IMG/VR virus record: IMGVR_UViG_3300023181_000271
Origin: a virus
Direction: 5' to 3' (one strand)
DNA: 64,000 bases
Part shown: positions 31,740 to 63,863 of the stretch, piece by piece
Numbering within the stretch: position 1 is the stretch's first letter
Layout of the letters: every line of letters begins with the position of its first letter
Position numbers and translations under genes: made by a program
Notes under the pieces: generated by a model
Database searches by the model: none
What the model saw: only the letters and a program-made list of their open reading frames with translations
Told to the model about the DNA's origin: nothing

Positions 31740-31831
31740 TGTCTTTTACCTATTAACCCCGGGACTTATGCCCGGGGTGTCTTCACTGTTTTGCCGGCCA
31801 TTAAATCCGGTATTTATATTAATCAAGTATG

Positions 31832-31902
31832 CATGAGTGAAAGGATTCGAACCTATATCAATAGTTTTGGAGACCACTATTCTACCTTTGAACTACACTC
31901 AC
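31832..31902 (-). tRNA. Phage-encoded tRNA-Trp (anticodon CCA)
   Basis: Manual fold: acceptor GUGAGUG/CACUCAU, D-stem GUUC/GAAU, anticodon stem with loop CUCCAAA, T-arm AUAGG-TTCGAAT-CCUUU. Confidence 0.65.
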
Positions 31903-32163: not shown

Positions 32164-32177
32164 ATAATATATATTTG

Positions 32178-32251
32178 TTGACCTGGAAGGACTCGAACCC
32201 TCAATCTTCTGAACCAAAATCAGACGTGCAAACCAATTACACCGCAGATCA
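32178..32251 (-). tRNA. Phage-encoded tRNA-Gln (anticodon UUG) with U1-A72 pair
   Basis: Manual fold: acceptor UGAUCUG/CAGGUCA (U1:A72 as in bacterial tRNA-Gln), anticodon stem UCUGA/UCAGA with loop UUUUGGU, T-arm GAGGG-TTCGAGT-CCUUC. Confidence 0.65.
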
Positions 32252-45157: not shown

Positions 45158-45961
45158 TTAAAGTTTTAATCTTTCATACATATCGAGCGCGGCCTGCACT
45201 CCTTTTTTTGGTTTTTCCTCAGTTGATTTTTTGACAGCCACTTCAATTGATCGGTTGATCCATCCTGAGGCAGCAGATTTCCAATTGGCCATTTTATTTT
45301 TTCCAACCATCCAGTTTTTTGAGCAATAAAAATCAATGAACTTTTTAGCTTGGAAGTTGCAGTCGTGATCAGACCATTTTGTTTCATTTACTTTCTCTGA
45401 AAAGAAGTTGGAAACATCAATGTGTGTGGGAGGGGAAAATGTAGTTTTCCCACTTATAGTTTTCTCTGTTTTAGGTTTAGGTGTTTTGTTGTTTTGTTGT
45501 TTAGGAATATTCCCTGTGCTTTCCTCATGCATTCCCTGTGCTGTACCAAGTGCGTTCCCTGTGCTTTCTGCATGCTGTACCAAATTTTGGTATAGCACAT
45601 TTATCTGAAAAAAGGCAGATTGATACTGATTTGGTCCTTTTTCATAAATAACATACCCTCCATCAACAAGCTCTTTAATGGCTGAATAGTAAGTGTTCTT
45701 TGTTATGCCAGTCATGCTTAAGACCTGACCAAATGCAACTCTAAATCGATCTTTCCACCCACACCTATTATTGATCTGCAGTAGCGACAAATACACTATA
45801 GAGGACGATGGTTTTAAGTCCATGTCCAACTCACACTTCTGCCAAAAAGCATTAATCTGCTTTATATAATCCATACTGCCTATTGAAGTAATACTATCCC
45901 TGCGCACCATTAAGGTTGTCAGCTTGTTTTCTGGTACCGGATGGGTACAAAGAAGGTGCAC
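45158..45961 (-). CDS. Putative replication initiator / DnaD-like replisome organiser with internal iterons
   Basis: N-terminal winged-helix-like region, conserved C-terminal W-rich region; three 12-bp direct repeats ATTCCCTGTGCT inside the coding sequence (lambda O-like arrangement). Confidence 0.45.
   Translation of the reverse strand: MHLLCTHPVPENKLTTLMVRRDSITSIGSMDYIKQINAFWQKCELDMDLKPSSSIVYLSLLQINNRCGWKDRFRVAFGQVLSMTGITKNTYYSAIKELVDGGYVIYEKGPNQYQSAFFQINVLYQNLVQHAESTGNALGTAQGMHEESTGNIPKQQNNKTPKPKTEKTISGKTTFSPPTHIDVSNFFSEKVNETKWSDHDCNFQAKKFIDFYCSKNWMVGKNKMANWKSAASGWINRSIEVAVKKSTEEKPKKGVQAALDMYERLKL
45509..45566. repeat. Iteron-like direct repeats (3 x (A/G)TTCCCTGTGCT, ~22-24 bp spacing) = candidate origin of replication
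   Basis: Copies at 45509-45520, 45531-45542, 45555-45566, preceded by (GTTTT)n simple repeat 45481-45505. Confidence 0.5.
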
Positions 45962-46440: not shown

Positions 46441-46620
46441 CTTAAAATAACTTTAACTGTTCTGGTTTAACTTTTGGTGGCTGGTAATTGTCTCGCTCCC
46501 ATCTTTTTTTTAATTCTTCGGCCGGCAGGATCTTGCTAACCTGGTATTCTCTCTGGTGGATCAACTCTTGAATGTATTCGTAATCAAGTAATCCGGATGC
46601 CCACTTTTCAAAGGCGTTCA

Positions 46621-47568
46621 TTAGTATTTAGACATTACACAATGTCCGTGACTCATTTTATACTCAATAAGTTCCTCGTCAGTCATGTGACCAAATTCAG
46701 CAATAGCCTCCTGAAGTATTTCAGGTAGAAGCTTTTCACCTTTAACCCCTAAATTTTTACCGACCCTATGGCTCCACTTAGCAATTTTATTAGCTTCATA
46801 ACGAACCCAATCATACCAATCAGCAGGATGAAATCTAAATAACCACAGTATTTCAATTTTACTTAGGTAAGGACAGAACTTGCAATTAGAAGGAAAGGGT
46901 AATTTAAAATTTGTATGGTTTAAAATATGATCGTGAACATTCCACCGCGCAATTCCTTCCAAAACAAGCGGGTAAATCTTTTCTACCGCTAACCTAAACC
47001 ATAATGGGACCGGGTTTTTATGCTTTTTAAAGGCATCTGTTTGGTTTGCTTTAAGTTCCTTTTTGGTAGCTTTTTTAATCCTCTGCTCCTCGCCTGCGGC
47101 TATACCAATGATCATTCTAATTCTACTATGGTCCTTAGCAAATTTCTTAATGAAATTCTTACCTTTTGGTTGAATGACTGAATTGTAACCGTAATATTTT
47201 TTAGCGATATAATGATCTATAAAATTATAGATAGGCTTAATTTTTAGATTATCTGTGCATGATCTCGGCCCCATTAATGACATTATCGAATCATTTTTAA
47301 TAAACTGTCCCTCTAAGGTCTGCCACGTTGCAGGATGATATTCGCCATTAGTTAAAAAATAAAACTCAATTCCATATTGGTGGCAGAGGGCTTTGATATA
47401 ATTCACGTGTTCATATGTGTGCTTATGTTCATTACCAGGGTCCGACTCTACTACAATGAAATGACCTTTAACATATTTTTCTCTAAACTCTTGATAAAGC
47501 ATTATACGATACAATATGTCAGTACTATCCTGTCCAGCTCCGAAAGATAAAACGGTTAATTGTTCCAT
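46621..47568 (-). CDS. PAPS-reductase-like PP-loop ATP pyrophosphatase family protein (DndC/CysH-like)
   Basis: N-terminal PP-loop variant LSFGAGQDST (cf. SGGKDS); 315 aa; several conserved Cys. Confidence 0.7.
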   Translation of the reverse strand: MEQLTVLSFGAGQDSTDILYRIMLYQEFREKYVKGHFIVVESDPGNEHKHTYEHVNYIKALCHQYGIEFYFLTNGEYHPATWQTLEGQFIKNDSIMSLMGPRSCTDNLKIKPIYNFIDHYIAKKYYGYNSVIQPKGKNFIKKFAKDHSRIRMIIGIAAGEEQRIKKATKKELKANQTDAFKKHKNPVPLWFRLAVEKIYPLVLEGIARWNVHDHILNHTNFKLPFPSNCKFCPYLSKIEILWLFRFHPADWYDWVRYEANKIAKWSHRVGKNLGVKGEKLLPEILQEAIAEFGHMTDEELIEYKMSHGHCVMSKY

Positions 47569-48305
47569 TATGTAGCCTCCATTTCTGCAACTTTTATAGG
47601 ACGAACCTGCATTGTGGTAAGATTCAGATAAAGTCCATGGTAATCAATCCTTCCATCAGTAATTAACTTCCAAAGTAAGTTGCATCCTAAATTTGCCAAA
47701 GTAGAATTAATAAATAAATCCTGCTTACCTAACGCTTCCGCGAGTGAACAGCTGGGCCCTTGATTCTTCTCTTTAATTTTTTTTAAATCAAAAAGTTGAG
47801 TAACACTTTTAAGTTCTTCAGAGAACAGTGTTCCAAGAACTACCTGGCCAGTCTTTTGAGAATTTCCAAAATCCAACCAGTAGAACCGCTTACCGTATTC
47901 GTAACCACCAGTATTTGTATATATGCCCTTTCCAATTTCAATTCTTGTTTTTGCAGTATCTACACAGGTGATGAGGATGTTTGCATGATTGAGTGTATCA
48001 AACTTAGCATTGATCGCCTCCCATTCAAAACCGAAAAACCTGTTTATTCTGGTAATAGATATGATTGCTTTATTCAATCCTAAATCACCTGGAGAATACA
48101 ACTGTCTGCCTACATTAGCCATACTTACGGTATCATGATCAAAGGCGCGAACATGAATACCGGGATGACCAAGTGCAACAAGTCCAGTGTGAATTCTGGC
48201 TAAAGCACTGAGTACCTGAGAACCTGTACCACCTACACCGACCAGATCTACCGTAATCTTATGTGTAGGATTTAAAAGATAATTATGTGTCTTATGATAT
48301 GCCAT
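47568..48305 (-). CDS. ThiF/MoeB/E1-like adenylyltransferase-family protein (PRTRC ThiF-like)
   Basis: Rossmann motif VDLVGVGGTGSQVL and overall ThiF-family architecture, 245 aa. Confidence 0.7.
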   Translation of the reverse strand: MAYHKTHNYLLNPTHKITVDLVGVGGTGSQVLSALARIHTGLVALGHPGIHVRAFDHDTVSMANVGRQLYSPGDLGLNKAIISITRINRFFGFEWEAINAKFDTLNHANILITCVDTAKTRIEIGKGIYTNTGGYEYGKRFYWLDFGNSQKTGQVVLGTLFSEELKSVTQLFDLKKIKEKNQGPSCSLAEALGKQDLFINSTLANLGCNLLWKLITDGRIDYHGLYLNLTTMQVRPIKVAEMEAT

Positions 48306-49012
48306 TATAAGATAGATTTAAGGGATATTTTTACCTGATGGGAAACCAGTTCATTGATACTGCTCCATTTAAGCGATGGATTTTGGATCATCCTCTTCCA
48401 TACTAGGTTACCGTTTGACTTGCAGAAATTACCACCGTGCATAGCTGAGAATTCTGATAGCCAGAACATGTCCTCCCAGTACTTCATGATGTTGCTGAAT
48501 GATAAAATATCAGGCTTCTTAACTTTCGCATTACCAAGGCACACTGATTCAGTGGTTACATTATAGTATGGCGCTCTGTATAATTGCGTATCTTCTGTCG
48601 GTCGCTTATTACTCTTTAATGCAAACACTTTTAATCCTGATTTTGTAGCAGAATAAACAGTTGCTGGTACGTAAGCAAGTCCAGAATCCATTTCTAATGA
48701 AGATGAGAAATGAATCGTCCTCTGCTCTTCTTTGCGGTACCAAACCAAACTGTACTCGCCTGACCCTTCCGATTCACCTTTCAATAAATTCTCCGGAATA
48801 TATCCACTTAACCTAACTTTACCAGCATTATTATCAAAAATTGAATTGGCAATTGCTTCAAGGGTTTTTACCTTCAGTGGCCTGCCCTCTAGCATCTGTC
48901 CATCTTTATTAATCGGATGGCTTTCTAAATAAAAATCATCATGTGATTTATAAGCGATCATAGCCATGAATGGCACGAAGCTTCCATTAAGCTGTTCTGA
49001 TACTTTATTCAT
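48305..49012 (-). CDS. Hypothetical protein (PRTRC protein B-like by size and position)
   Basis: 235 aa, translationally coupled to ThiF-like gene; contains HPIN motif. Confidence 0.35.
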   Translation of the reverse strand: MNKVSEQLNGSFVPFMAMIAYKSHDDFYLESHPINKDGQMLEGRPLKVKTLEAIANSIFDNNAGKVRLSGYIPENLLKGESEGSGEYSLVWYRKEEQRTIHFSSSLEMDSGLAYVPATVYSATKSGLKVFALKSNKRPTEDTQLYRAPYYNVTTESVCLGNAKVKKPDILSFSNIMKYWEDMFWLSEFSAMHGGNFCKSNGNLVWKRMIQNPSLKWSSINELVSHQVKISLKSIL

Positions 49013-50132
49013 TGTTGTAAATTTTACGCACTAAATCGCATGCATGTTCAAAGAATTTATCTATTTTAGGTAACCAAGTATCTCGTTTAAATACCGTAGT
49101 AGTTTCCTTGTTGACCATCAGCCATGCATAGGGAACATCTACTGACTCCTGAGCACCAGAATCTATCAGTTCTCCAAGTTCAATAGCAACACCATCAGAA
49201 TCATCCCACAGTATTGTAAACTGCTGCTCAAAATGAAGTCCCTCGCCATTGTATTCTGTTCCTTCATCGGGATTATAATAGTAGTTCACTATTGATTTTC
49301 GATCTGGATCAATACATAACTGGCAACCTTCGATCATCAAATCAATGATCAAGTGATCGGATTCCAAGCTTTTTATCTCTTCAATTAGTTCATCAGGTTC
49401 CCAGTCACATGATTGGTTGATACTATTTTCAAAGGCTGCAGCATCACCAGATTTGTAAACTTCTAAGCAATCTTCTATCCTTTTGATATTGTCAGTAAAC
49501 CACTCAGCATCTTCTGATCCTTCTGATTCGTCGGTAAGATTTAGAATTTGCTCTTCCAAAAAATCCTGCGCATACATAGCATCACCTTGATACCATAAAT
49601 CTACACCAGTTTTTTTAGAGAACATTTTCAGGAATGACATGAAGGTAATCAGCAGATCTTCGTTTGAATCTATATTTTTGATGATGGTCTTCACTTCAAA
49701 TATATGCCATTGCTCATCCCAATCACATGCTTTATAAATCACAAAGAAATAATCTCCTTTCTCAGTACGGTCAATTTGCCATTGGCAGTCCTGATCAACA
49801 AGAAGGGAAAACTCTTCTTTAATTCTATCGAACAGGCAGGAAGATCCTAAAGGCAACGTATGAATACTGTACTGGTAAGGCTTACTATTTACTATCTGAT
49901 AGTAATTACTTAGTGCATCGAATAACTGCTGATGAAGAGTTTGATCCTTTAAGATAATATCAACTGCAGGTTTGCTTTGAAATATTACGGAATTAAATTG
50001 ACCCAGAATGCTGGGAGCAGCTTTCTTTCTTGCTGCTCCTCGTTTGCATAAAGGTTTTTGTTTCTTATTTCCATTTCGAATGCCAGGCCTAACTTCTTGT
50101 AAAACTGTGGCTCCTGTAATTTGCGCTTGCAT
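49005..50132 (-). CDS. Acidic hypothetical protein (PRTRC protein F-like by size and position)
   Basis: 375 aa highly acidic, basic N-terminal tail. Confidence 0.35.
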   Translation of the reverse strand: MQAQITGATVLQEVRPGIRNGNKKQKPLCKRGAARKKAAPSILGQFNSVIFQSKPAVDIILKDQTLHQQLFDALSNYYQIVNSKPYQYSIHTLPLGSSCLFDRIKEEFSLLVDQDCQWQIDRTEKGDYFFVIYKACDWDEQWHIFEVKTIIKNIDSNEDLLITFMSFLKMFSKKTGVDLWYQGDAMYAQDFLEEQILNLTDESEGSEDAEWFTDNIKRIEDCLEVYKSGDAAAFENSINQSCDWEPDELIEEIKSLESDHLIIDLMIEGCQLCIDPDRKSIVNYYYNPDEGTEYNGEGLHFEQQFTILWDDSDGVAIELGELIDSGAQESVDVPYAWLMVNKETTTVFKRDTWLPKIDKFFEHACDLVRKIYNNE

Positions 50133-50138
50133 GGCCGT

Positions 50139-50360
50139 TTAACCTTTGGTTCCGACTGTTGTTTTGAACTCATAAACTGCTTCATCATCTTTCAGAAATG
50201 GACCACTGACCGTTGCTGTAGTCAGCTCCGGATAATTGTTTGAATAGAAAACCATCACTTCGTCTGGACTAAAAGCATTATTTGGATCTTCCAAAATCTG
50301 ATCTTTACCGTTTAATTTTGCTTTGAAGGTTCTTACTACACCTTGAATATTTAATGCCAT
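50139..50360 (-). CDS. Small ubiquitin-sized protein ending in Gly (PRTRC protein C-like / possible beta-grasp carrier)
   Basis: 73 aa; C-terminus ...TTVGTKG; located within E1-like cassette. Confidence 0.35.
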   Translation of the reverse strand: MALNIQGVVRTFKAKLNGKDQILEDPNNAFSPDEVMVFYSNNYPELTTATVSGPFLKDDEAVYEFKTTVGTKG

Positions 50361-50974
50361 TATGCTTCCTCCTCTTCGTTATAGTTATTTTCCTCAGTTA
50401 ATTCTCCTTCTGGTTGATCATCTTTAAAATCAGCCAGGTAATCAGTTGTATCCGCTTCCTCGGCCACTGCACTGAATATGCTTCCCTGAGATAATTTGGC
50501 GACCATTTCTTTGATCATCTTATCAACCGATTCTGGTTTATCAGAAAAGTCTTTAGCTTGCTTAAGTACTGCTACTGCTTCTTTAATCTTGTTATCCTTT
50601 TTAAAGGCATCAAATTTTGTCATCAATGCAGCGTATTTTTTAAGCTTAGCCTCTTTTTCCTTCTTATCCTGTTCAGCCTTCTTCTTTTCAACCTCATTCT
50701 CTTTTGCTAACTTAGAAGCGCCTGCTTCGAACGTAGCAATGTTTGACATGATACCAGTTGCTGTAGTTATTGGCTGATGGATAATTGAAAGAAATTCCTC
50801 ATCAAGTTCAGCAGGGGATCCAGTGATCAGAATAGGTTTGATATTGGCTATGGCGCCATCCTTGATTTCCGCTTTTGGCATGATCATCACTGTCAGCTGA
50901 TCACCTTTCTTTTTAATGTTTAATTGCAGTTCAGTGTCGTTAAGCATTTCGCTTATGGAATTGAAAAAATTCAT
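50360..50974 (-). CDS. Lys/Glu-rich low-complexity acidic protein (PRTRC protein E-like)
   Basis: 204 aa with KENEVEKKKAEQDKKEKEAKLKK tract and acidic C-terminus EENNYNEEEEA. Confidence 0.4.
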   Translation of the reverse strand: MNFFNSISEMLNDTELQLNIKKKGDQLTVMIMPKAEIKDGAIANIKPILITGSPAELDEEFLSIIHQPITTATGIMSNIATFEAGASKLAKENEVEKKKAEQDKKEKEAKLKKYAALMTKFDAFKKDNKIKEAVAVLKQAKDFSDKPESVDKMIKEMVAKLSQGSIFSAVAEEADTTDYLADFKDDQPEGELTEENNYNEEEEA

Positions 50975-50989
50975 AATCTTGGTTTGGTT

Positions 50990-52681
50990 TTATTTTGAAA
51001 AAAGGTTCATCACACTATCGACGAAGGTTTCTTCGGTTAAATCTTCACTGCCATTTACCGTATTGGCAATTTCACGTTTGTCGTTGATGAGCTGGTAGTT
51101 CCATTCATCAATGGTGTTTTTACCAAGGAAGTAAGTACACATGACATTGGAATGCTGACCGCCCCGATACAACCTATCCTCTGCCTGATCCATGATTGCT
51201 GCGTGCCAACCAAATTCAATAAAGCAAATCTGTGTAGCGACATTCTGCAGCCCATCTACACCGGTACCACCGGCTTTCAGGTTAAGGACAATTACATCGA
51301 TCTTCGGATCCTTTTGGAAGCGTTCAACTGCTGCCTGTTTAGCATTGCCATCATCAGCTCCAGTAACGCGTACCGACCTGGGAAACTCCTGCTGAACTTT
51401 AGCTACAACTTCTTTTAAGCTTGCGAACACTACAACCTTTTGCCCTTGCTCAATCAGATCCTGAATAAATGAAAAGGCATCTTTAAGCTTTCCCCGGGCA
51501 CTGATGTTCTTCAGAATACCAATCCTCACCATCACCTCACCTTTCATTGATTTTTTAACGGACTCTTCAGACTGCTTTTTGATGTTGATCATGTAACTTT
51601 CCAAGTCAGCCTGAGCATGCTGGTATTCTCTTCTATGCGTAGCATCCAGTTCGCAGCTTATTACTTGTCTGGATTTATCCGGTAGAAACTTTTTAATTTC
51701 AGGATCTGTTTTATTCCGACGAAGGAAGCAAATCAGGTTCAGCCTGTAGTTCAACTCTTTTAAATTGCTGGCCTCTTTAGGACCAGAGCAATAGCGTTTA
51801 ACAAAAGCAGCGTATCCCCCAAAATCCTTTAACCTGTCCATGATACCAAGCTGGGAAACTAAATCGATCGGCTTATTCACGACAACTGTACCGGTAAGTA
51901 GCAGTATAGTTTCTTTCCCGATACAAAGGCCTTTGGTTAATTTGGTAGAGATTGCCTTGATATTTTTTACCTTATGGCTTTCATCTACGATCACCGCCTT
52001 AAAGAAATCAAGGTATTTCTGTTTAAAATGGATATGCTCCAGGCGCAACTGTTTACCTTTTGGTACCTCATCAATATGATCAACGAAATACGTTTTCAGC
52101 GATTCATAGTTGACAATAAAGAATTGCGACATACCAACCCGGAAGAACTCCATGAACGTTCCCTTGATGCTTTTCTGAAATACAATCCCTTTACGATGGA
52201 TATTAGCGTTGATCTCTTTAACCCAGTTTAGTTTTACTGCATCCGGACAGATGATTAAGCAAGGATAGGAAGCCTCACCCATCTGGCTTAGACCTTCGAT
52301 TGCAATAATCGCTTCAGTTGTTTTACCTAAGCCCATATCATCACCGATGATCACTCTACGGTGTTTCAGGATATAAGCAACGGCACCTGGCTGCCATGGT
52401 CTCATTTCCCTTTTTGTTGGGATGCTGATTTCAAGTTCAGGCAAAGCTGGTATTACAAATACCTGTTCAGGTTCAACAGCTGCACTATTGTGAAAATCAA
52501 GATCGTATTTATCAGCGAATGATTTTACTGCGATGTGATGGGTTACCGGCACGGTCCAGAACTTATCAGTACGATCAAATTTTCTTTCTGGAAGAAGTTT
52601 AACGGCTTCTGCTATTTTAGGTCTGAAAGCAAATTCAATCTTGTAAACCTTTCCTACTTGCATTATGGTTCCTACGCTCAT
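50990..52681 (-). CDS. SNF2/RAD54-family helicase
   Basis: Motif I DDMGLGKT, motif II DESHKVKN, C-terminal helicase domain; 563 aa. Confidence 0.85.
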   Translation of the reverse strand: MSVGTIMQVGKVYKIEFAFRPKIAEAVKLLPERKFDRTDKFWTVPVTHHIAVKSFADKYDLDFHNSAAVEPEQVFVIPALPELEISIPTKREMRPWQPGAVAYILKHRRVIIGDDMGLGKTTEAIIAIEGLSQMGEASYPCLIICPDAVKLNWVKEINANIHRKGIVFQKSIKGTFMEFFRVGMSQFFIVNYESLKTYFVDHIDEVPKGKQLRLEHIHFKQKYLDFFKAVIVDESHKVKNIKAISTKLTKGLCIGKETILLLTGTVVVNKPIDLVSQLGIMDRLKDFGGYAAFVKRYCSGPKEASNLKELNYRLNLICFLRRNKTDPEIKKFLPDKSRQVISCELDATHRREYQHAQADLESYMINIKKQSEESVKKSMKGEVMVRIGILKNISARGKLKDAFSFIQDLIEQGQKVVVFASLKEVVAKVQQEFPRSVRVTGADDGNAKQAAVERFQKDPKIDVIVLNLKAGGTGVDGLQNVATQICFIEFGWHAAIMDQAEDRLYRGGQHSNVMCTYFLGKNTIDEWNYQLINDKREIANTVNGSEDLTEETFVDSVMNLFSK

Positions 52682-58346: not shown

Positions 58347-59345
58347 TTAAAATTGTGGTTCGTCAGAGGTATCGATCGAGGCGAACGTTGTAGTTTCAAC
58401 AGGCTGACTGATTTGAGCTTCTTCTAATGCCTGGGTAAAATCATCTTTAGCTTGCGGTACCTCCTCGTGATCAACATCTTGGAACGATTGATTTCCAGTT
58501 TCATCAGGATCAAAACCATAATCAACTTCTGATGGCAGAATCTCTTCTTCCATAGCTGGTTCAAGCGTAGAAAACTTACCTGTCGGTACTTTTGGATAGC
58601 TTTTAAAAGCGTGTTTTAAAGTTTTAGCCTTCAGAAAACCAGTATCAATTTGTCCACCATTCGATACATAAAGAGCATTTGATTTATCGCTGGTGGCTGT
58701 GCCATAATTGTTTTTGTTGGAATAAGCACGAAGTCTTTCGACTTCTTTCATATCCAGATAAGGCATTTCAAAACTTCCATCGTGACGTTCAATACGAACA
58801 AAGCATGCTACGATCTTAGCACCGTCAGGACGAGGAAGTTTGGCATCATATTCTTTAGCGACTAATTTGCCTTTGTCGTTGATACCGATTTTGAAGTTAT
58901 CGCAATCATAAACTACGATCGGATTGTCAGCATATTTGATCTGACCAGAACGCATGCGCATTTTTACTTCGCCATAAGGAGAAATAGCAAGCTGTGCGCG
59001 TTTCTCATAAACTGGTTTACCTTCCACTTCACCCACTTTAAAGTTACGGGTAGTGATATAGCAGTCAGGTTTATTTCCCTGCTCTAAGCTTAACTGATTA
59101 ACATTAATATCTAAGAATACACCGTATAACGATAAAGGGCTACATTCCCGTAATACTGGTGTTTCAGATAATAATTTTTTGTAGTTGAATACCTGCAAGT
59201 GATATTCCTGTTCGCCTCGCTCATTACCATTAAACTGGTTGTGTAGGGTGATGAACTTATCTTTTACAAAATCTAATTCCACCAGTTCGATAGCTGGTGT
59301 GGCTTTTAAAGTCGCCATTACGTTTGTTACAACTGCTTTTGACAT
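58347..59345 (-). CDS. RecT-family single-strand annealing protein
   Basis: Conserved blocks (CSPLSLYGVFLDINV, SPYGEVKMRMRSGQI, VACFVRIERHDGSFEMPYLDMKEVERLRAYS) align with RecT core; acidic C-terminal tail. Confidence 0.65.
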   Translation of the reverse strand: MSKAVVTNVMATLKATPAIELVELDFVKDKFITLHNQFNGNERGEQEYHLQVFNYKKLLSETPVLRECSPLSLYGVFLDINVNQLSLEQGNKPDCYITTRNFKVGEVEGKPVYEKRAQLAISPYGEVKMRMRSGQIKYADNPIVVYDCDNFKIGINDKGKLVAKEYDAKLPRPDGAKIVACFVRIERHDGSFEMPYLDMKEVERLRAYSNKNNYGTATSDKSNALYVSNGGQIDTGFLKAKTLKHAFKSYPKVPTGKFSTLEPAMEEEILPSEVDYGFDPDETGNQSFQDVDHEEVPQAKDDFTQALEEAQISQPVETTTFASIDTSDEPQF

Positions 59346-62234: not shown

Positions 62235-62628
62235 ACTAATGGCAACGATAGATAAACAAATTAAAATGCAAATGGCTGCTCGGTTTAAACAATTTCGAGA
62301 GGAAGAAGGACTCAGTCAGGATGCTATTGCTGAAAAGACCAGTACACCCAGGAGTAATATATCTAAATATGATAACGGATCTTATAACCTACCAATTGAC
62401 TTCATTTTAGATTTGAAGAAATATTATAGGTTGAGCATTGATTGGCTGTTTACAGGCGAAGGATCACATAAAAGTGAAGTGGTTAAAAACAACACTTTGG
62501 TAACAGATATAAAGACGTTAAATGATAATAATATATATCTGCATGCTGAACTTAAATCATTGAAAAAGGAATTTTATAAGATGCATGCTGATTTTTACGA
62601 ACTTAAAAATACATTTAAGGCAGGTTAA
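62212..62628 (+). CDS. XRE-family HTH regulator (WLFTGEG type)
   Basis: LSQDAIAEKTSTPRSNISKYDNG ... IDWLFTGEG; probable start MATIDKQ (62239). Confidence 0.6.
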   Translation: MINQTITKLMATIDKQIKMQMAARFKQFREEEGLSQDAIAEKTSTPRSNISKYDNGSYNLPIDFILDLKKYYRLSIDWLFTGEGSHKSEVVKNNTLVTDIKTLNDNNIYLHAELKSLKKEFYKMHADFYELKNTFKAG

Positions 62629-62646
62629 AATCTCCTGCCTTTTTTA
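62617..62646. terminator. Bidirectional terminator between HTH gene and integrase
   Basis: Hairpin AAGGCAGG-ttaaaatctc-CTGCCTT followed by T6. Confidence 0.55.
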
Positions 62647-63863
62647 AACTCGGTTTCTTGAGTATTAATTCCCAGATCACGCATGTAGATCATAGTTGTA
62701 GCCAGATCCCGGTGCCGGAAGAGTTTCATAATTTTATGCAGATCTTCTCCATCCTCCCCTAAATGCACAGCCCTGGTATGCTTGTAACAATATATACCAT
62801 CACGATCTCCTAGATTTAAAGCTGTCTTGTAGGGTTTAAATAACCGCCTGAAGTAATCATCCCCTACTTTAGTTTCACCACCTAAGAACGCTCCATCCCG
62901 GTTCCTTGCAAAAACATAATCGTTTGAAGGCATCTGATCAATTTTCAATTCAAGTAGTAATTCCCTAAAATCTGGATAGATAGGTATGTATTCGGTTTTC
63001 CTATTCTTAGCGGTTCCACTGAGAACACGTAATGTGTTTTGCTTAAAGTTAATATCACCAGCTTTTACCCTGTTACCTTCCGATACATTTCGCAGGCCGG
63101 CATAATAGATGAAGCTGCAAAATGTATACAGCAATGTATCACCATTTTCCTGCATCATTTCTTTGAGTTGTTTAAACTCCCAATCATTTAATGCCTTGTT
63201 CCCAGGTCGGTCTACCCTTGCCCGGCTTAAGGTAAGGGTGGGTACTTTATCAATATAATCATCATAGTTATTGTAAAAATAATTGAAGAAGGTAGTGATA
63301 TCTGTCAGATAGTGATTATAGGTTTTTCCGGACCAGTTACGTTGCAGCTTATAGTAGGTCATGAAATCCAACACATGCGCTTTTTTTATATCTCGCAGCA
63401 ATACCTGATCATATTCATTCTTGATCAGCCAATTCTTAAAAAGGTTTAGTTCGAGTGAATACTTATGCATAGTGGTTTTCTTGACTGTGATTTCAGCCAG
63501 GTACTTATCTATGCAAATTGAAATTGTGCGCTGTTTGTTGAGTAAATTTTGAAGTGGCCGATATTCCTCAAAGGGTGACCATCCTTGTTTTAAAAGATCA
63601 GTAAGCTCATTTTTAAAACCCTTACCGTATTCTCTTCTTTCAGTTTTGGTTTTGAATTGATTGAATCCAAAATTATATCTAAATCTTTCGTATTTCCCAG
63701 TTAATGGATGTTGATATTTAATCCAAACGAACCAGTCTTTAGTAAGATCACCATTCTTTGGTTCATAAATAAAAGGGCCTTCCCACTTCGTTTTCAAATT
63801 CTCAGGTTTGTCAGTTTGGTCTGTTAATTGGTCAGCCGCAATATTAATGCGACTGACAATCAA
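62625..63863 (-). CDS. Tyrosine-type site-specific integrase (TTG start)
   Basis: C-terminal catalytic region with HTRAVHL ... FRHRDLATTMIYM (HxxR ... Y); adjacent to attR/ssrA. Confidence 0.9.
   Translation of the reverse strand: MIVSRINIAADQLTDQTDKPENLKTKWEGPFIYEPKNGDLTKDWFVWIKYQHPLTGKYERFRYNFGFNQFKTKTERREYGKGFKNELTDLLKQGWSPFEEYRPLQNLLNKQRTISICIDKYLAEITVKKTTMHKYSLELNLFKNWLIKNEYDQVLLRDIKKAHVLDFMTYYKLQRNWSGKTYNHYLTDITTFFNYFYNNYDDYIDKVPTLTLSRARVDRPGNKALNDWEFKQLKEMMQENGDTLLYTFCSFIYYAGLRNVSEGNRVKAGDINFKQNTLRVLSGTAKNRKTEYIPIYPDFRELLLELKIDQMPSNDYVFARNRDGAFLGGETKVGDDYFRRLFKPYKTALNLGDRDGIYCYKHTRAVHLGEDGEDLHKIMKLFRHRDLATTMIYMRDLGINTQETEFKKGRRF

What the first reader, a model, noticed from the sequence alone, without database searches (positions are those of the whole stretch)
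46621..50974. Prophage-borne ThiF/E1-like + PP-loop (PAPS-reductase-like) + ubiquitin-sized protein cassette resembling a PRTRC system with ParB replaced
Six co-oriented, translationally coupled genes encode, in transcription order, a Lys/Glu-rich acidic protein (204 aa), a 73-aa protein ending in Gly, an acidic 375-aa protein, a 235-aa protein, a ThiF/MoeB-like E1-fold protein (GxGxxG) and a PP-loop PAPS-reductase-family protein. The sizes and order match my recollection of the PRTRC E-C-F-B-ThiF arrangement described for proteobacterial plasmids. Here, however, it sits in the early region of a Bacteroidota siphovirus prophage, and a PP-loop ATPase occupies the place normally taken by ParB. 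ParB/PAPS-reductase fusions are known in phages, which makes the swap plausible. An E1-like enzyme, a Gly-terminated small protein and a PP-loop ATPase together are also the minimal parts list of Ubl-thiocarboxylate-dependent nucleic-acid thiolation (TtuA/TtuB/TtuC-like). The cassette could therefore modify phage DNA or tRNA, or act as an anti-defence or partition module. I do not know of this architecture being described.
Basis: partly seen in the sequence, partly recalled or inferred. Interest (0 to 1): 0.85.

Follow-up and report, generated by a model that had tools for sequence, protein, structure and literature searches.

The report
Phage ubiquitin-like conjugation cassette (PRTRC)
Five of the six genes are an ordinary Bacteroidota member of the PRTRC ("6d") cassette, a widespread but never-tested ubiquitin-like tagging system of phages, plasmids and conjugative elements, and the sixth (PP-loop) gene is an unrelated neighbour.

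Summary
All six co-oriented, tightly packed genes are present at the stated coordinates.

**The five-gene core.** Five genes are a PRTRC cassette, which is operon type "6d" of Iyer, Burroughs and Aravind (2006). In order they are:
- PRTRC_E
- a 73-aa Prok_Ub ubiquitin-like protein ending in GTKG
- a fast-evolving acidic 375-aa protein at the PRTRC_F position
- a Prok-E2_D E2-like protein, with invariant Cys158
- the PRTRC ThiF-type E1

The cassette is not a new architecture. The same five-gene core, with no JAB gene and usually no ParB gene, occurs in at least 232 IMG/VR viral contigs and at least 589 species genomes, nearly all Bacteroidota. Examples include Bacteroides thetaiotaomicron BT2645-49. 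It usually sits inside replication modules.

**The PP-loop gene.** This gene belongs to the phage "PAPS reductase" family (phrog_424), with distant similarity to SspD and DndC. It does not replace ParB. Its family is absent from 160 surveyed PRTRC loci. Its closest homologues lie in elements without PRTRC, next to DNA methylases, ArdA or ParB. Only one closely related phage keeps the adjacency.

**Likely function.** The cassette most likely conjugates the ubiquitin-like protein to proteins through an E1-to-E2 relay during early lytic replication. A TtuA/B/C-like sulfur relay is unlikely. The target and the biological role are unknown.

**Verdict.** This is a new member of a known but uncharacterised kind.

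The parts
50360..50974 (-). PRTRC_E: conserved N-terminal domain, Lys/Glu-rich helical middle region, acidic tail (204 aa; 29 Lys, 0 Arg).
   Evidence: PF19556 E=3.6e-41 and TIGR03741 above cut-off. Present in 141 of 160 related loci. The family is Lys-rich and Arg-poor.
50139..50360 (-). PRTRC_C / Prok_Ub: ubiquitin-like protein of 73 aa, translated already ending in the conserved GTKG with a free C-terminal Gly.
   Evidence: PF14454 E=8.6e-25 and TIGR03738 above cut-off. In related loci 73 of 76 homologues end in Gly, and 66 of 76 end in GTKG.
49005..50132 (-). Protein at the PRTRC_F position: basic disordered N-terminus (residues 1-55) followed by an acidic, mainly alpha-helical globular body. 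It is the fastest-evolving member of the cassette. Proposed role: specificity factor or adaptor (inferred).
48305..49012 (-). PRTRC_B / Prok-E2_D: E2-like protein with invariant Cys158 and Asn151. The family-conserved His after the Cys is Ala190 here, with a His at position 192.
   Evidence: PF14460 E=2.6e-32. TIGR03737 E=2.5e-28, below its curated cut-off. Residue conservation from 81 sequences.
47568..48305 (-). PRTRC ThiF-family E1-like adenylating enzyme (245 aa). Invariant residues: GxGGxG, R37, D56/D58, R67-Q68, K79, D116, and Cys186 in a PSCS motif.
   Evidence: TIGR03736 244.6 bits against a cut-off of 144.8; PF00899. Conservation. Closest solved relatives are UBA5, Uba1, UBA6 and ThiF.
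46621..47568 (-). Adjacent but independent gene: PP-loop, PAPS-reductase-like enzyme of the phage/MGE family phrog_424. Conserved motifs: SFGxGQDS, CTDNLK, PSNCxxCP and C-terminal SHGHC.
   Evidence: phrog_424 E=4e-20. Weak PADLOC hits to SspD (9e-8), BrxP and DndC. 8 of 26 family members hit PF01507. Foldseek matches YcfA, CysH and TilS. The family is absent from 160 PRTRC loci.
46442..46621 (-). 59-aa ORF that travels with the PP-loop gene in the one close relative that keeps the adjacency. Function unknown.
   Evidence: 80% identical ORF directly after the PP-loop gene in L180. No family hit.
50990..52681 (-). Context: SNF2-family helicase directly upstream (15-nt gap), in the slot that a DnaN clamp gene occupies in many related phages.
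   Evidence: PF00176 E=1.3e-26. DnaN lies immediately upstream of E in about 30 of 80 viral loci and 11 of 80 genome loci.

Best explanation
Window 47568-50974 holds a five-gene PRTRC cassette, operon type 6d of Iyer et al. It is the form that is standard in Bacteroidota phages and conjugative elements: E, ubiquitin-like protein, hypervariable F-position protein, E2-like protein, ThiF-type E1. This form has no JAB peptidase and no ParB.

The cassette is transcribed as part of the prophage's early leftward operon. That operon runs from RecT and the SNF2 helicase through the cassette to the replication initiator.

Proposed mechanism (inferred from family knowledge, not shown here):
1. The homodimeric E1 adenylates the C-terminal Gly73 of the ubiquitin-like protein. 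The protein is made in mature form ending in GTKG, so no JAB processing is needed.
2. The ubiquitin-like protein passes as a thioester to the invariant E1 Cys186, then to the invariant E2 Cys158.
3. It is conjugated to lysines of one or more target proteins.
4. The fast-evolving F-position protein, and possibly the Lys-rich E protein, serve as specificity factor, scaffold or acceptor.

The cassette rides on phages, ICEs and plasmids, next to replication and establishment genes, and is expressed early. Its role is therefore most likely to favour replication or establishment of the element in the host, by modifying replisome or host factors or by counter-defence. It is less likely to be a defence system of the cell.

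The PP-loop gene (46621-47568) is a separate accessory gene. It is probably a DNA-modifying or anti-restriction enzyme of the DndC/SspD/IbrA-like branch, and it merely neighbours the cassette in this phage lineage.
For: **Identity.**
- HMM hits for E, C, B and ThiF.
- The same gene order as annotated PRTRC in Ralstonia phage Dina and on proteobacterial plasmids.

**Conservation.**
- The order E-Ub-F-E2-ThiF recurs in about 75 of 80 viral loci and about 70 of 80 genome loci.
- The E1 family is found in at least 232 viral contigs, at least 589 species genomes and 352 plasmids.

**Catalytic logic.**
- The E1 nucleotide-binding motifs and Cys186 are invariant.
- E2 Cys158 and Asn151 are invariant.
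- The Ubl ends in Gly in 73 of 76 homologues.
- The JAB HMM finds 0 of 160 Bacteroidota loci but all the proteobacterial loci annotated with PRTRC protein A.
- No JAB or ParB Pfam domain was found in 55 further ORFs of the window, chiefly the early region.
- The E1 profile is nearer to UBA5 and Uba1 than to ThiF.

**Context.**
- DnaN lies directly upstream of E in 41 loci. Helicases, VRR-NUC and DnaB lie nearby. Plasmids have DnaN and SSB nearby.
- No terminator-like site occurs inside the operon.

**F as the variable component.**
- Against the nearest relative, F is 28% identical. Ub is 74%, ThiF 67%, E2 56% and E 50%.

**Independence of the PP-loop gene.**
- The family is found in 0 of 160 PRTRC loci.
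- Homologues at 61-73% identity lie in elements without PRTRC.
- The ThiF relatives at 83% and 69% identity are followed by other genes.
Against: - No experiment exists for any PRTRC or 6d system (literature). Conjugation, thioester chemistry, targets and biological role are all inferred.
- The E2 of this particular phage has Ala where 96% of the family has His. A His sits two residues later, so this copy could be impaired.
- Bub systems show that related bacterial E1 and E2 proteins can use non-thioester chemistry (PMC11601596).
- Homology of the 375-aa protein to canonical PRTRC_F is only suggestive.
- One close relative (L180, ThiF 74% identical) does keep ThiF, PP-loop and the 59-aa ORF together. 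A lineage-specific functional link cannot be fully excluded.
- All characterised sister families (6b CBASS, 6c Bil, 6e Bub) are host defence systems, not element-benefit systems.
Confidence: 0.7

Rival explanations
1. All six genes form one functional unit in which the E1 converts the Gly-terminated Ubl to a thiocarboxylate. The PP-loop enzyme then uses it to thiolate phage DNA or tRNA, in a TtuC/TtuB/TtuA-like sulfur relay, and the PP-loop enzyme takes the place of ParB.
For: - The PP-loop gene overlaps the ThiF stop codon by 1 nt.
- The PP-loop family has invariant Cys104, Cys229 and Cys232, nearly invariant Cys310, and invariant His residues in a C-terminal HGHC motif. This is compatible with a metal or Fe-S site.
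- Its best structural matches include the thiolating PP-loop enzyme YcfA, and it has weak hits to the phosphorothioation enzymes SspD and DndC.
- One close relative keeps the adjacency.
Against: - The cassette contains an E2-like protein with an invariant Cys, which sulfur relays lack.
- The PP-loop family is absent from 160 PRTRC loci.
- It occurs alone in other prophages and ICEs, next to methylases, ArdA and ParB.
- The closest ThiF relative (83%) and the closest PP-loop relative (73%) are not adjacent to the other partner.
- In L180 a reverse-strand ORF separates the two genes.
- ParB lies upstream of E, not after ThiF, in canonical cassettes.
- No cysteine desulfurase or rhodanese was found nearby.
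Confidence: 0.04
2. The cassette is a prophage-encoded anti-phage defence system. It would conjugate its Ubl to proteins of superinfecting phages, as Bil does, or prime an effector, as type II CBASS does.
For: - Sister operon families 6b (CBASS), 6c (Bil) and 6e (Bub) are defence systems (PMC11601596, PMC10557695).
- Prophages often carry defence genes.
- The E1 has weak hits to the PADLOC Cap2-like E1-E2 models.
Against: - The cassette lies inside the early replication operon, not at a lysogeny or moron locus. It has no internal terminator-like site and no CapW, CapH or CapP regulator.
- No PADLOC model matches E, Ubl, F or E2.
- It has no JAB and no effector gene.
- The constant partners in other elements are replication genes such as DnaN, helicases and SSB.
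Confidence: 0.12
3. The cassette is a partition or maintenance (addiction-like) module. The name "ParB-related, ThiF-related cassette" and some genome papers assume this.
For: - Proteobacterial plasmids place a dedicated ParB directly upstream.
- The literature calls it a putative partitioning cassette (PMC13366799).
- Iyer et al. speculated on opposing JAB and E1/E2 activities as an addiction principle (PMC1779556).
Against: - Here and in 144 of 160 Bacteroidota loci no PRTRC-type ParB was found within 9 kb. JAB is absent in all 160.
- An integrating prophage with an integrase needs no partition system.
- No centromere-like repeats were looked for or reported.
Confidence: 0.08

Closest known systems
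PRTRC system (TIGR03734-TIGR03742), which is operon type 6d of Iyer, Burroughs and Aravind 2006 (PMC1779556). Examples: Burkholderia plasmid NZ_CP014311, Ralstonia phage Dina.
   Same: The Ubl (Prok_Ub), E2 (Prok-E2_D), dedicated ThiF-type E1 and PRTRC_E families are the same. The order E-C-F-B-...-ThiF is the same. Both reside on mobile elements next to replication genes.
   Different: This cassette has no PRTRC_A (DUF2016 plus JAB) and no ParB. The F-position protein is not recognised by TIGR03742 or PF14456. Where canonical cassettes have a long Ubl (129 aa in Dina) they also have JAB; here the Ubl ends exactly at Gly.
JAB-less five-gene PRTRC of Bacteroidota conjugative transposons and phages. 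Examples: B. thetaiotaomicron BT2645-BT2649; Tunicatimonas plasmid NZ_CP120684; IMG/VR contigs.
   Same: The five families, order and sizes are identical. The F-position family is shared: hhalign gives 96% probability to the Tunicatimonas protein, and the family is found in 146 of 160 loci (PMC10434189).
   Different: The flanks differ. This phage has an SNF2 helicase upstream, where many others have DnaN, and a PP-loop gene downstream. Its E2 has Ala at the position of the conserved His.
Bil (types I and II), type II CBASS Cap2/Cap3, and Bub. These are the experimentally characterised bacterial ubiquitination-like systems (6c, 6b, 6e).
   Same: All share the E1 plus E2 (plus Ubl) logic and a C-terminal Gly acceptor. 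PRTRC probably performs protein conjugation in the same way.
   Different: The E1, E2 and Ubl families are different. Those systems have multidomain or fused E1 proteins, JAB or serine peptidases, and defence-island context with regulators. They are host defence systems, whereas this cassette is element-borne and early-expressed. No PADLOC models match the PRTRC E, Ubl, F or E2 proteins (PMC11601596, PMC10557695).
Phage/MGE PAPS-reductase-like PP-loop enzymes (phrog_424; DndC, SspD, BrxP, IbrA branch). This comparison concerns the sixth gene only.
   Same: It has the PP-loop fold and an SxGxxDS-type motif. It sits in MGE early or anti-restriction regions, often beside ParB-like proteins or DNA methylases.
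   Different: It is a divergent subfamily that misses Pfam PF01507 for this protein. Its substrate and chemistry are unknown. It has no Dnd or Ssp partner genes.

Membership tests
PRTRC system (TIGRFAM/NCBIfam definition) | PRTRC ThiF-family E1 (TIGR03736) above the curated cut-off | tested here: met
   244.6 bits against a cut-off of 144.75, E=9e-73, full length.
PRTRC system (TIGRFAM/NCBIfam definition) | PRTRC_C ubiquitin-like protein (TIGR03738 / PF14454) | tested here: met
   66.6 bits against a cut-off of 45.95. PF14454 E=8.6e-25 over positions 2-64 of 64. The C-terminal Gly is conserved in 73 of 76 homologues.
PRTRC system (TIGRFAM/NCBIfam definition) | PRTRC_E (TIGR03741 / PF19556) | tested here: met
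   70.8 bits against a cut-off of 37.95. PF19556 gives 141 bits.
PRTRC system (TIGRFAM/NCBIfam definition) | PRTRC_B E2-like protein (TIGR03737 / PF14460) | tested here: inconclusive
   PF14460 gives 112 bits against a gathering score of 25, which is met. TIGR03737 gives 99 bits, below its equivalog cut-off of 131.45. Cys158 is invariant.
PRTRC system (TIGRFAM/NCBIfam definition) | PRTRC_F alpha-helical protein (TIGR03742 / PF14456) | tested here: inconclusive
   No HMM hit for the protein or for 33 family members. The position, size and mainly helical model agree. hhalign against four canonical F proteins gives P=4e-4 and probability 35%; controls give P of 0.14 or more.
PRTRC system (TIGRFAM/NCBIfam definition) | PRTRC_A (DUF2016 plus Prok-JAB peptidase) | tested here: not met
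   Absent from the cassette. No Prok-JAB or DUF2016 domain was found in 55 further ORFs of the window, chiefly the early region. The JAB HMM finds 0 of 160 Bacteroidota loci.
PRTRC system (TIGRFAM/NCBIfam definition) | Dedicated ParB-family protein adjacent (TIGR03734) | tested here: not met
   No ParB_N or ParBc domain was found in the window ORFs scanned. The upstream gene is an SNF2 helicase. A PRTRC-ParB-like gene lies within 9 kb in only 16 of 160 Bacteroidota loci.
Operon type 6d (Iyer et al. 2006) | E2-like protein with a conserved Cys and an absolutely conserved His C-terminal to it | tested here: inconclusive
   Cys158 is present. The consensus His (96% of 81 sequences) is Ala190 here, with a His at position 192. 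The nearest relative has the His.
TtuA/TtuB/TtuC-type Ubl-thiocarboxylate thiolation | The PP-loop thiolase is conserved together with the Ubl and E1, and no E2 is needed | tested here: not met
   The PP-loop family is in 0 of 160 PRTRC loci. It occurs alone elsewhere. An E2 is present in the cassette.
Known anti-phage ubiquitination-like systems (CBASS II, Bil, Bub, 6A-MBL) | Match to the system's E1, E2, Ubl or peptidase models, and defence-type context | tested here: not met
   Only weak E1 Rossmann-region hits were found (PADLOC E1-E2 E of 1e-4 or more; NF058523 at 6e-4). Nothing matched the Ubl, E2, E or F proteins.
PAPS reductase / PP-loop ATPase superfamily (sixth gene) | PP-loop fold with an N-terminal SGGxDS-type motif, and a match to PF01507 or phrog_424 | tested here: met
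   phrog_424 E=4e-20. Foldseek probability 1.00 to YcfA and CysH. Motif SFGAGQDS is present. The protein itself misses PF01507, but 8 of 26 relatives hit it.

The most novel reading that the evidence does not exclude
Phages and conjugative elements use this JAB-less Ubl, E1 and E2 module offensively on the replication machinery. Specifically, they would tag a sliding clamp or another replisome or host factor, as a bacterial counterpart of PCNA ubiquitination or SUMOylation. The hypervariable F protein would choose the target.

The lead is that an element-encoded DnaN clamp gene abuts PRTRC_E, at 0-20 nt, in about 41 of 160 related loci. DnaN or SSB also lie beside the cassette on proteobacterial plasmids.
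Probability: 0.1. Interest if true: 0.85.

Novelty: new member of a known kind. Interest (0 to 1): 0.42.

Why it matters
PRTRC (6d) is the last of the five bioinformatically defined bacterial E1/E2/Ubl operon families with no experimental work in the literature searched here. The other four turned out to be, or to sit within, immune systems.

This survey shows three things about the Bacteroidota form:
- It is a compact five-gene unit.
- It needs no maturation protease.
- It is very common in phage replication modules and in ICEs of gut and soil Bacteroidota.

If it conjugates proteins for the benefit of the element, it would be the first ubiquitin-like system used by bacterial viruses and plasmids rather than against them.

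The conserved ...GTK-G tail has a practical use. Trypsin would leave a single-Gly remnant (+57 Da) on modified lysines, so targets could be found directly by proteomics.

The specific finding as written, a new PRTRC variant with a PP-loop gene in place of ParB acting as a thiolation machine, does not hold.

Tried and rejected
- **PP-loop as part of the cassette.** Rejected after HMM surveys of 80 viral and 80 genome loci found it in 0 of 160 and after eight neighbourhood look-ups. Only L180 keeps the adjacency.
- **Other PAPS reductases near PRTRC.** A different PAPS-reductase subfamily (SFSGGKDS motif, about 380 aa) lies 1-3 kb downstream of ThiF in 3 viral loci. An unrelated one lies 5 kb downstream on an Alteromonas plasmid. 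I judged this to be co-residence in early or establishment regions, not coupling.
- **Word-indexed protein search with the 375-aa protein.** It found only the protein itself.
- **Comparing the gene after ThiF in phage Dina (gp01) with the PP-loop protein.** No similarity.
- **Sequence search of the PDB.** Nothing for the PP-loop profile, the E2 or the Ubl.
- **DNA-level search of the cassette against cultured phages.** Only one short match.
- **A single-protein scan of viral contigs.** It found nothing until an alignment was used.
- **Literature searches for functional work on PRTRC or 6d.** Nothing found. One search on "6D ..." phrases was wasted on unrelated papers.
- **The sigma-70 promoter scan.** It is at chance level and unsuited to Bacteroidota.

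Full report
**Observation.** The six ORFs exist exactly as described, all on the minus strand:
- 50974-50360, 204 aa
- 50360-50139, 73 aa, ending GTKG
- 50132-49005, 375 aa
- 49012-48305, 235 aa
- 48305-47568, 245 aa
- 47568-46621, 315 aa

Neighbouring genes overlap by 1 or 8 nt, or are separated by 6 nt. The upstream SNF2 helicase ends 15 nt before the first gene. No minus-strand terminator-like site lies between 53917 and 44000. The genes are therefore read as part of one long early transcript.

The surrounding region is a prophage. It has RecT (58350-59345), a DnaD/O-like replication initiator (45161-45961), a large terminase, an SPP1-type portal, a muramidase and an integrase (62628-63863). 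Host katG lies at the left end. The same sequence was assembled independently in three metagenome contigs.

**Identity of the five upstream genes.** HMM searches give unambiguous assignments:
- PRTRC_E: PF19556 E=3.6e-41; TIGR03741 above cut-off
- Prok_Ub / PRTRC_C: PF14454 E=8.6e-25; TIGR03738 above cut-off
- Prok-E2_D / PRTRC_B: PF14460 E=2.6e-32; TIGR03737 hit below its equivalog cut-off
- PRTRC ThiF: TIGR03736 244.6 bits against a cut-off of 144.8

The order matches annotated cassettes. Ralstonia phage Dina has E-C-F-B-A-ThiF. A Burkholderia plasmid has ParB-E-C-F-B-A-ThiF. PRTRC corresponds to operon type 6d of Iyer, Burroughs and Aravind (PMC1779556). That type comprises a Ubl, a JAB, an E1, an E2 and a rapidly diverging alpha-helical protein.

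**What is missing.** There is no PRTRC_A (DUF2016 plus JAB) and no ParB. Neither is in the cassette, and neither was found in 55 further ORFs of the window, chiefly the early region, at Pfam E<=1e-3. This is not a peculiarity of this phage.

I used an alignment of E1 homologues to scan two collections. The IMG/VR scan found 232 viral contigs. The species-genome scan found at least 589 matching stretches in the species-genome collection, the top 80 almost all Bacteroidota.

Locally built HMMs on 80 viral plus 80 genome loci gave these counts:

| Family | Loci of 160 |
|---|---|
| E | 141 |
| Ubl | 144 |
| F-position family | 146 |
| E2 | 155 |
| E1 | 160 |
| JAB | 0 |
| PRTRC-type ParB within 9 kb | 16 |

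The genes are always in the order E-Ub-F-E2-ThiF. The JAB HMM did recover every proteobacterial locus annotated with PRTRC protein A.

The same JAB-less five-gene unit is annotated in B. thetaiotaomicron (BT2645-49, PMC10434189). It is also on a Tunicatimonas plasmid. JAB-less versions with ParB occur on Pseudomonas megaplasmids and an Alteromonas plasmid. One E1 cluster is already named "PRTRC system ThiF family protein [Caudoviricetes sp.]" in nr. The architecture is therefore known to databases, although hardly discussed in the literature. Papers that mention it call its function unknown, or guess at partitioning.

**Why no JAB is needed.** In 73 of 76 homologues the Ubl ORF ends exactly at Gly, and 66 of 76 end in GTKG. 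Both proteobacterial phages in the set carry a 129-aa Ubl with a C-terminal extension, and both also carry JAB. The Bacteroidota Ubl is thus translated ready for activation. The lack of a deconjugating enzyme suggests that the modification is not reversed by the cassette itself. That last point is inference.

**Catalytic residues.**
- The E1 family keeps the GxGGxG loop, R37, D56/D58, N64, R67-Q68, K79 and D116. It also keeps an invariant Cys186 in a PSCS motif.
- The E1 profile's nearest solved relatives are UBA5, Uba1 and UBA6, ahead of ThiF.
- The E2 family keeps Cys158 and Asn151 seven residues upstream. This recalls the HPN...C arrangement of classical E2s (the comparison is from general knowledge).
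- One caveat applies to this copy. The His that follows the Cys in 96% of the family is Ala190 here, with a His at 192. The nearest relative has the consensus His.

**The F-position protein.**
- No library model matches it or 33 of its relatives. A word-indexed search found only the protein itself.
- An exhaustive HMMER search found 154 representatives, all standalone proteins of 180-415 aa, most about 350-415 aa.
- It diverges far faster than its neighbours. Against the nearest relative it is 28% identical, while Ub is 74%, ThiF 67%, E2 56% and E 50%.
- An AF2 model is confident (pLDDT 87.6, pTM 0.79). It shows a disordered basic N-terminus (residues 1-55, pI 11.6) and an acidic, mainly helical body.
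- Profile-profile comparison with four canonical PRTRC_F proteins gives P=4e-4 over 231 collinear columns. Seven unrelated controls give 0.14-0.84. An earlier, shallower alignment gave nothing.
- I treat it as the positional, and probably distant, homologue of PRTRC_F. This is not proven.

**The PP-loop gene.** The 315-aa protein is a genuine PP-loop enzyme. The evidence:
- phrog_424, "PAPS reductase", E=4e-20
- 8 of 26 relatives hit PF01507
- an AF2 model with pLDDT 86.7 matches YcfA, CysH, TilS and GMP synthase
- weak PADLOC hits to SspD, BrxP and DndC

The family has invariant Cys104, Cys229 and Cys232, nearly invariant Cys310, and a C-terminal SHGHC motif.

It is not part of PRTRC.
- Its family is absent from all 160 surveyed loci.
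- Homologues at 61-73% identity lie in elements without PRTRC. One lies next to a DNA methylase. Others lie next to PcfJ/PcfK, a primase-helicase, ArdA and a 608-aa ParB_N protein in a Pedobacter ICE, methyltransferases, or a VRR-NUC gene.
- The E1 relatives at 83% and 69% identity are followed by other genes.
- One relative from the same metagenome (L180, E1 74% identical) does keep ThiF, then a reverse-strand 92-aa ORF, then a PP-loop gene at 54% identity, then the 59-aa ORF at 80% identity. This is synteny within one phage lineage, with a mosaic break between the two genes.
- In canonical cassettes ParB sits upstream of E, not after ThiF. The "replacement" idea also fails on position.

**Context and likely role.**
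- In the related phage loci the cassette sits among replication genes. A DnaN clamp gene ends 0-20 nt before PRTRC_E in about 30 viral and 11 genome loci. SF2 helicases, VRR-NUC and DnaB are frequent neighbours.
- A second context is ICE-like, with topoisomerase III in 42 loci.
- Plasmids show DnaN or SSB nearby.
- In this window an SNF2 helicase occupies the upstream slot and a replication initiator follows downstream.
- None of E, the Ubl, F or the E2 matches any PADLOC defence model, and no defence regulators are present.

I therefore favour an element-benefit function during early replication or establishment, carried out by E1-to-E2 conjugation of the Ubl to proteins. F, and perhaps the Lys-rich and Arg-poor E protein, would serve as specificity factor or acceptor. 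Every mechanistic step is inferred from family knowledge. No PRTRC or 6d system has been studied experimentally in the searched literature. Bub systems show that such relatives can use unexpected chemistry (PMC11601596).

**Verdict.**
- It is wrong where it claimed novelty: the PP-loop gene replacing ParB, the thiolation relay, and the undescribed architecture.
- What remains interesting is generic to the family rather than specific to this window. PRTRC is an abundant, compact, experimentally untouched ubiquitin-like system of phages and ICEs.

Noticed in passing
window 48305-49012 (E2, residues 187-192): The His conserved in 96% of Prok-E2_D/PRTRC_B homologues (consensus EFSHxxG) is Ala here (EFSAMHG), with a His two residues later. 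The nearest relative (L087) has the consensus His. This copy may be weakened, or may use the shifted His.
   Followed up: partly
related loci, e.g. L007, L008, L020, L077, L100, L106 (gene directly upstream of PRTRC_E): An element-encoded DNA polymerase III beta-clamp (DnaN) gene ends 0-20 nt before PRTRC_E in about 30 of 80 viral and 11 of 80 genome loci. DnaN also lies near PRTRC on a P. aeruginosa megaplasmid (L090) and a Xanthomonas plasmid (L092). The window has no DnaN; an SNF2 helicase sits there instead.
   Followed up: partly
window 50360-50974 (PRTRC_E): The protein has 29 Lys and no Arg. Across 146 homologues the family has the highest Lys share of the cassette (median 11.6% K; K/(K+R)=0.82). 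In some loci E is expanded to 320-710 aa. It could be an acceptor or scaffold; this was not tested.
   Followed up: partly
[not shown]
   Followed up: partly
window 46621-47568 (PP-loop protein) and homologues in alignment A2: The family has invariant Cys104, Cys229 and Cys232 (PSNCxxCP), nearly invariant Cys310, and a C-terminal SHGHC motif. This suggests a metal or Fe-S site.
   Followed up: no
L177 (Pedobacter ICE), L178 (Puia), L005 (Sphingobacterium prophage), L086: Homologues of the PP-loop gene sit beside ArdA and a 608-aa ParB_N protein, or beside DNA methyltransferases, or beside PcfJ/PcfK. This pattern is typical of anti-restriction or establishment regions of mobile elements.
   Followed up: partly
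L065, L081, L085 (viral loci) and L093 (Alteromonas plasmid pAMED10_300): A different, canonical PAPS-reductase-like gene (SFSGGKDS motif, about 337-388 aa) lies 1-5 kb downstream of the PRTRC E1 in these four loci. It is unrelated at sequence level to the window's PP-loop protein.
   Followed up: partly
window 31831-31902 and 32177-32251: Two tRNA genes (Trp-CCA and Gln-TTG) lie on the minus strand inside the prophage. They sit just before the small and large terminase genes in the direction of transcription.
   Followed up: no
window 50990-52681: The SNF2 helicase directly upstream of the cassette gives partial matches to defence-system helicase models (ZorD, DpdE, DrmD). All are far below the NCBIfam curated cut-offs for those families, so it is probably just a phage SNF2 replication or recombination helicase.
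   Followed up: no
L119, L135 ('Clostridium sp.' MAG), L120 ('Lachnospiraceae' MAG), L146 ('Proteobacteria' MAG): Bacteroidota-type PRTRC E1 genes (about 50% identical to the window's) sit on contigs binned to Firmicutes or Proteobacteria MAGs. This is probably mis-binning of mobile-element contigs rather than true host range.
   Followed up: no
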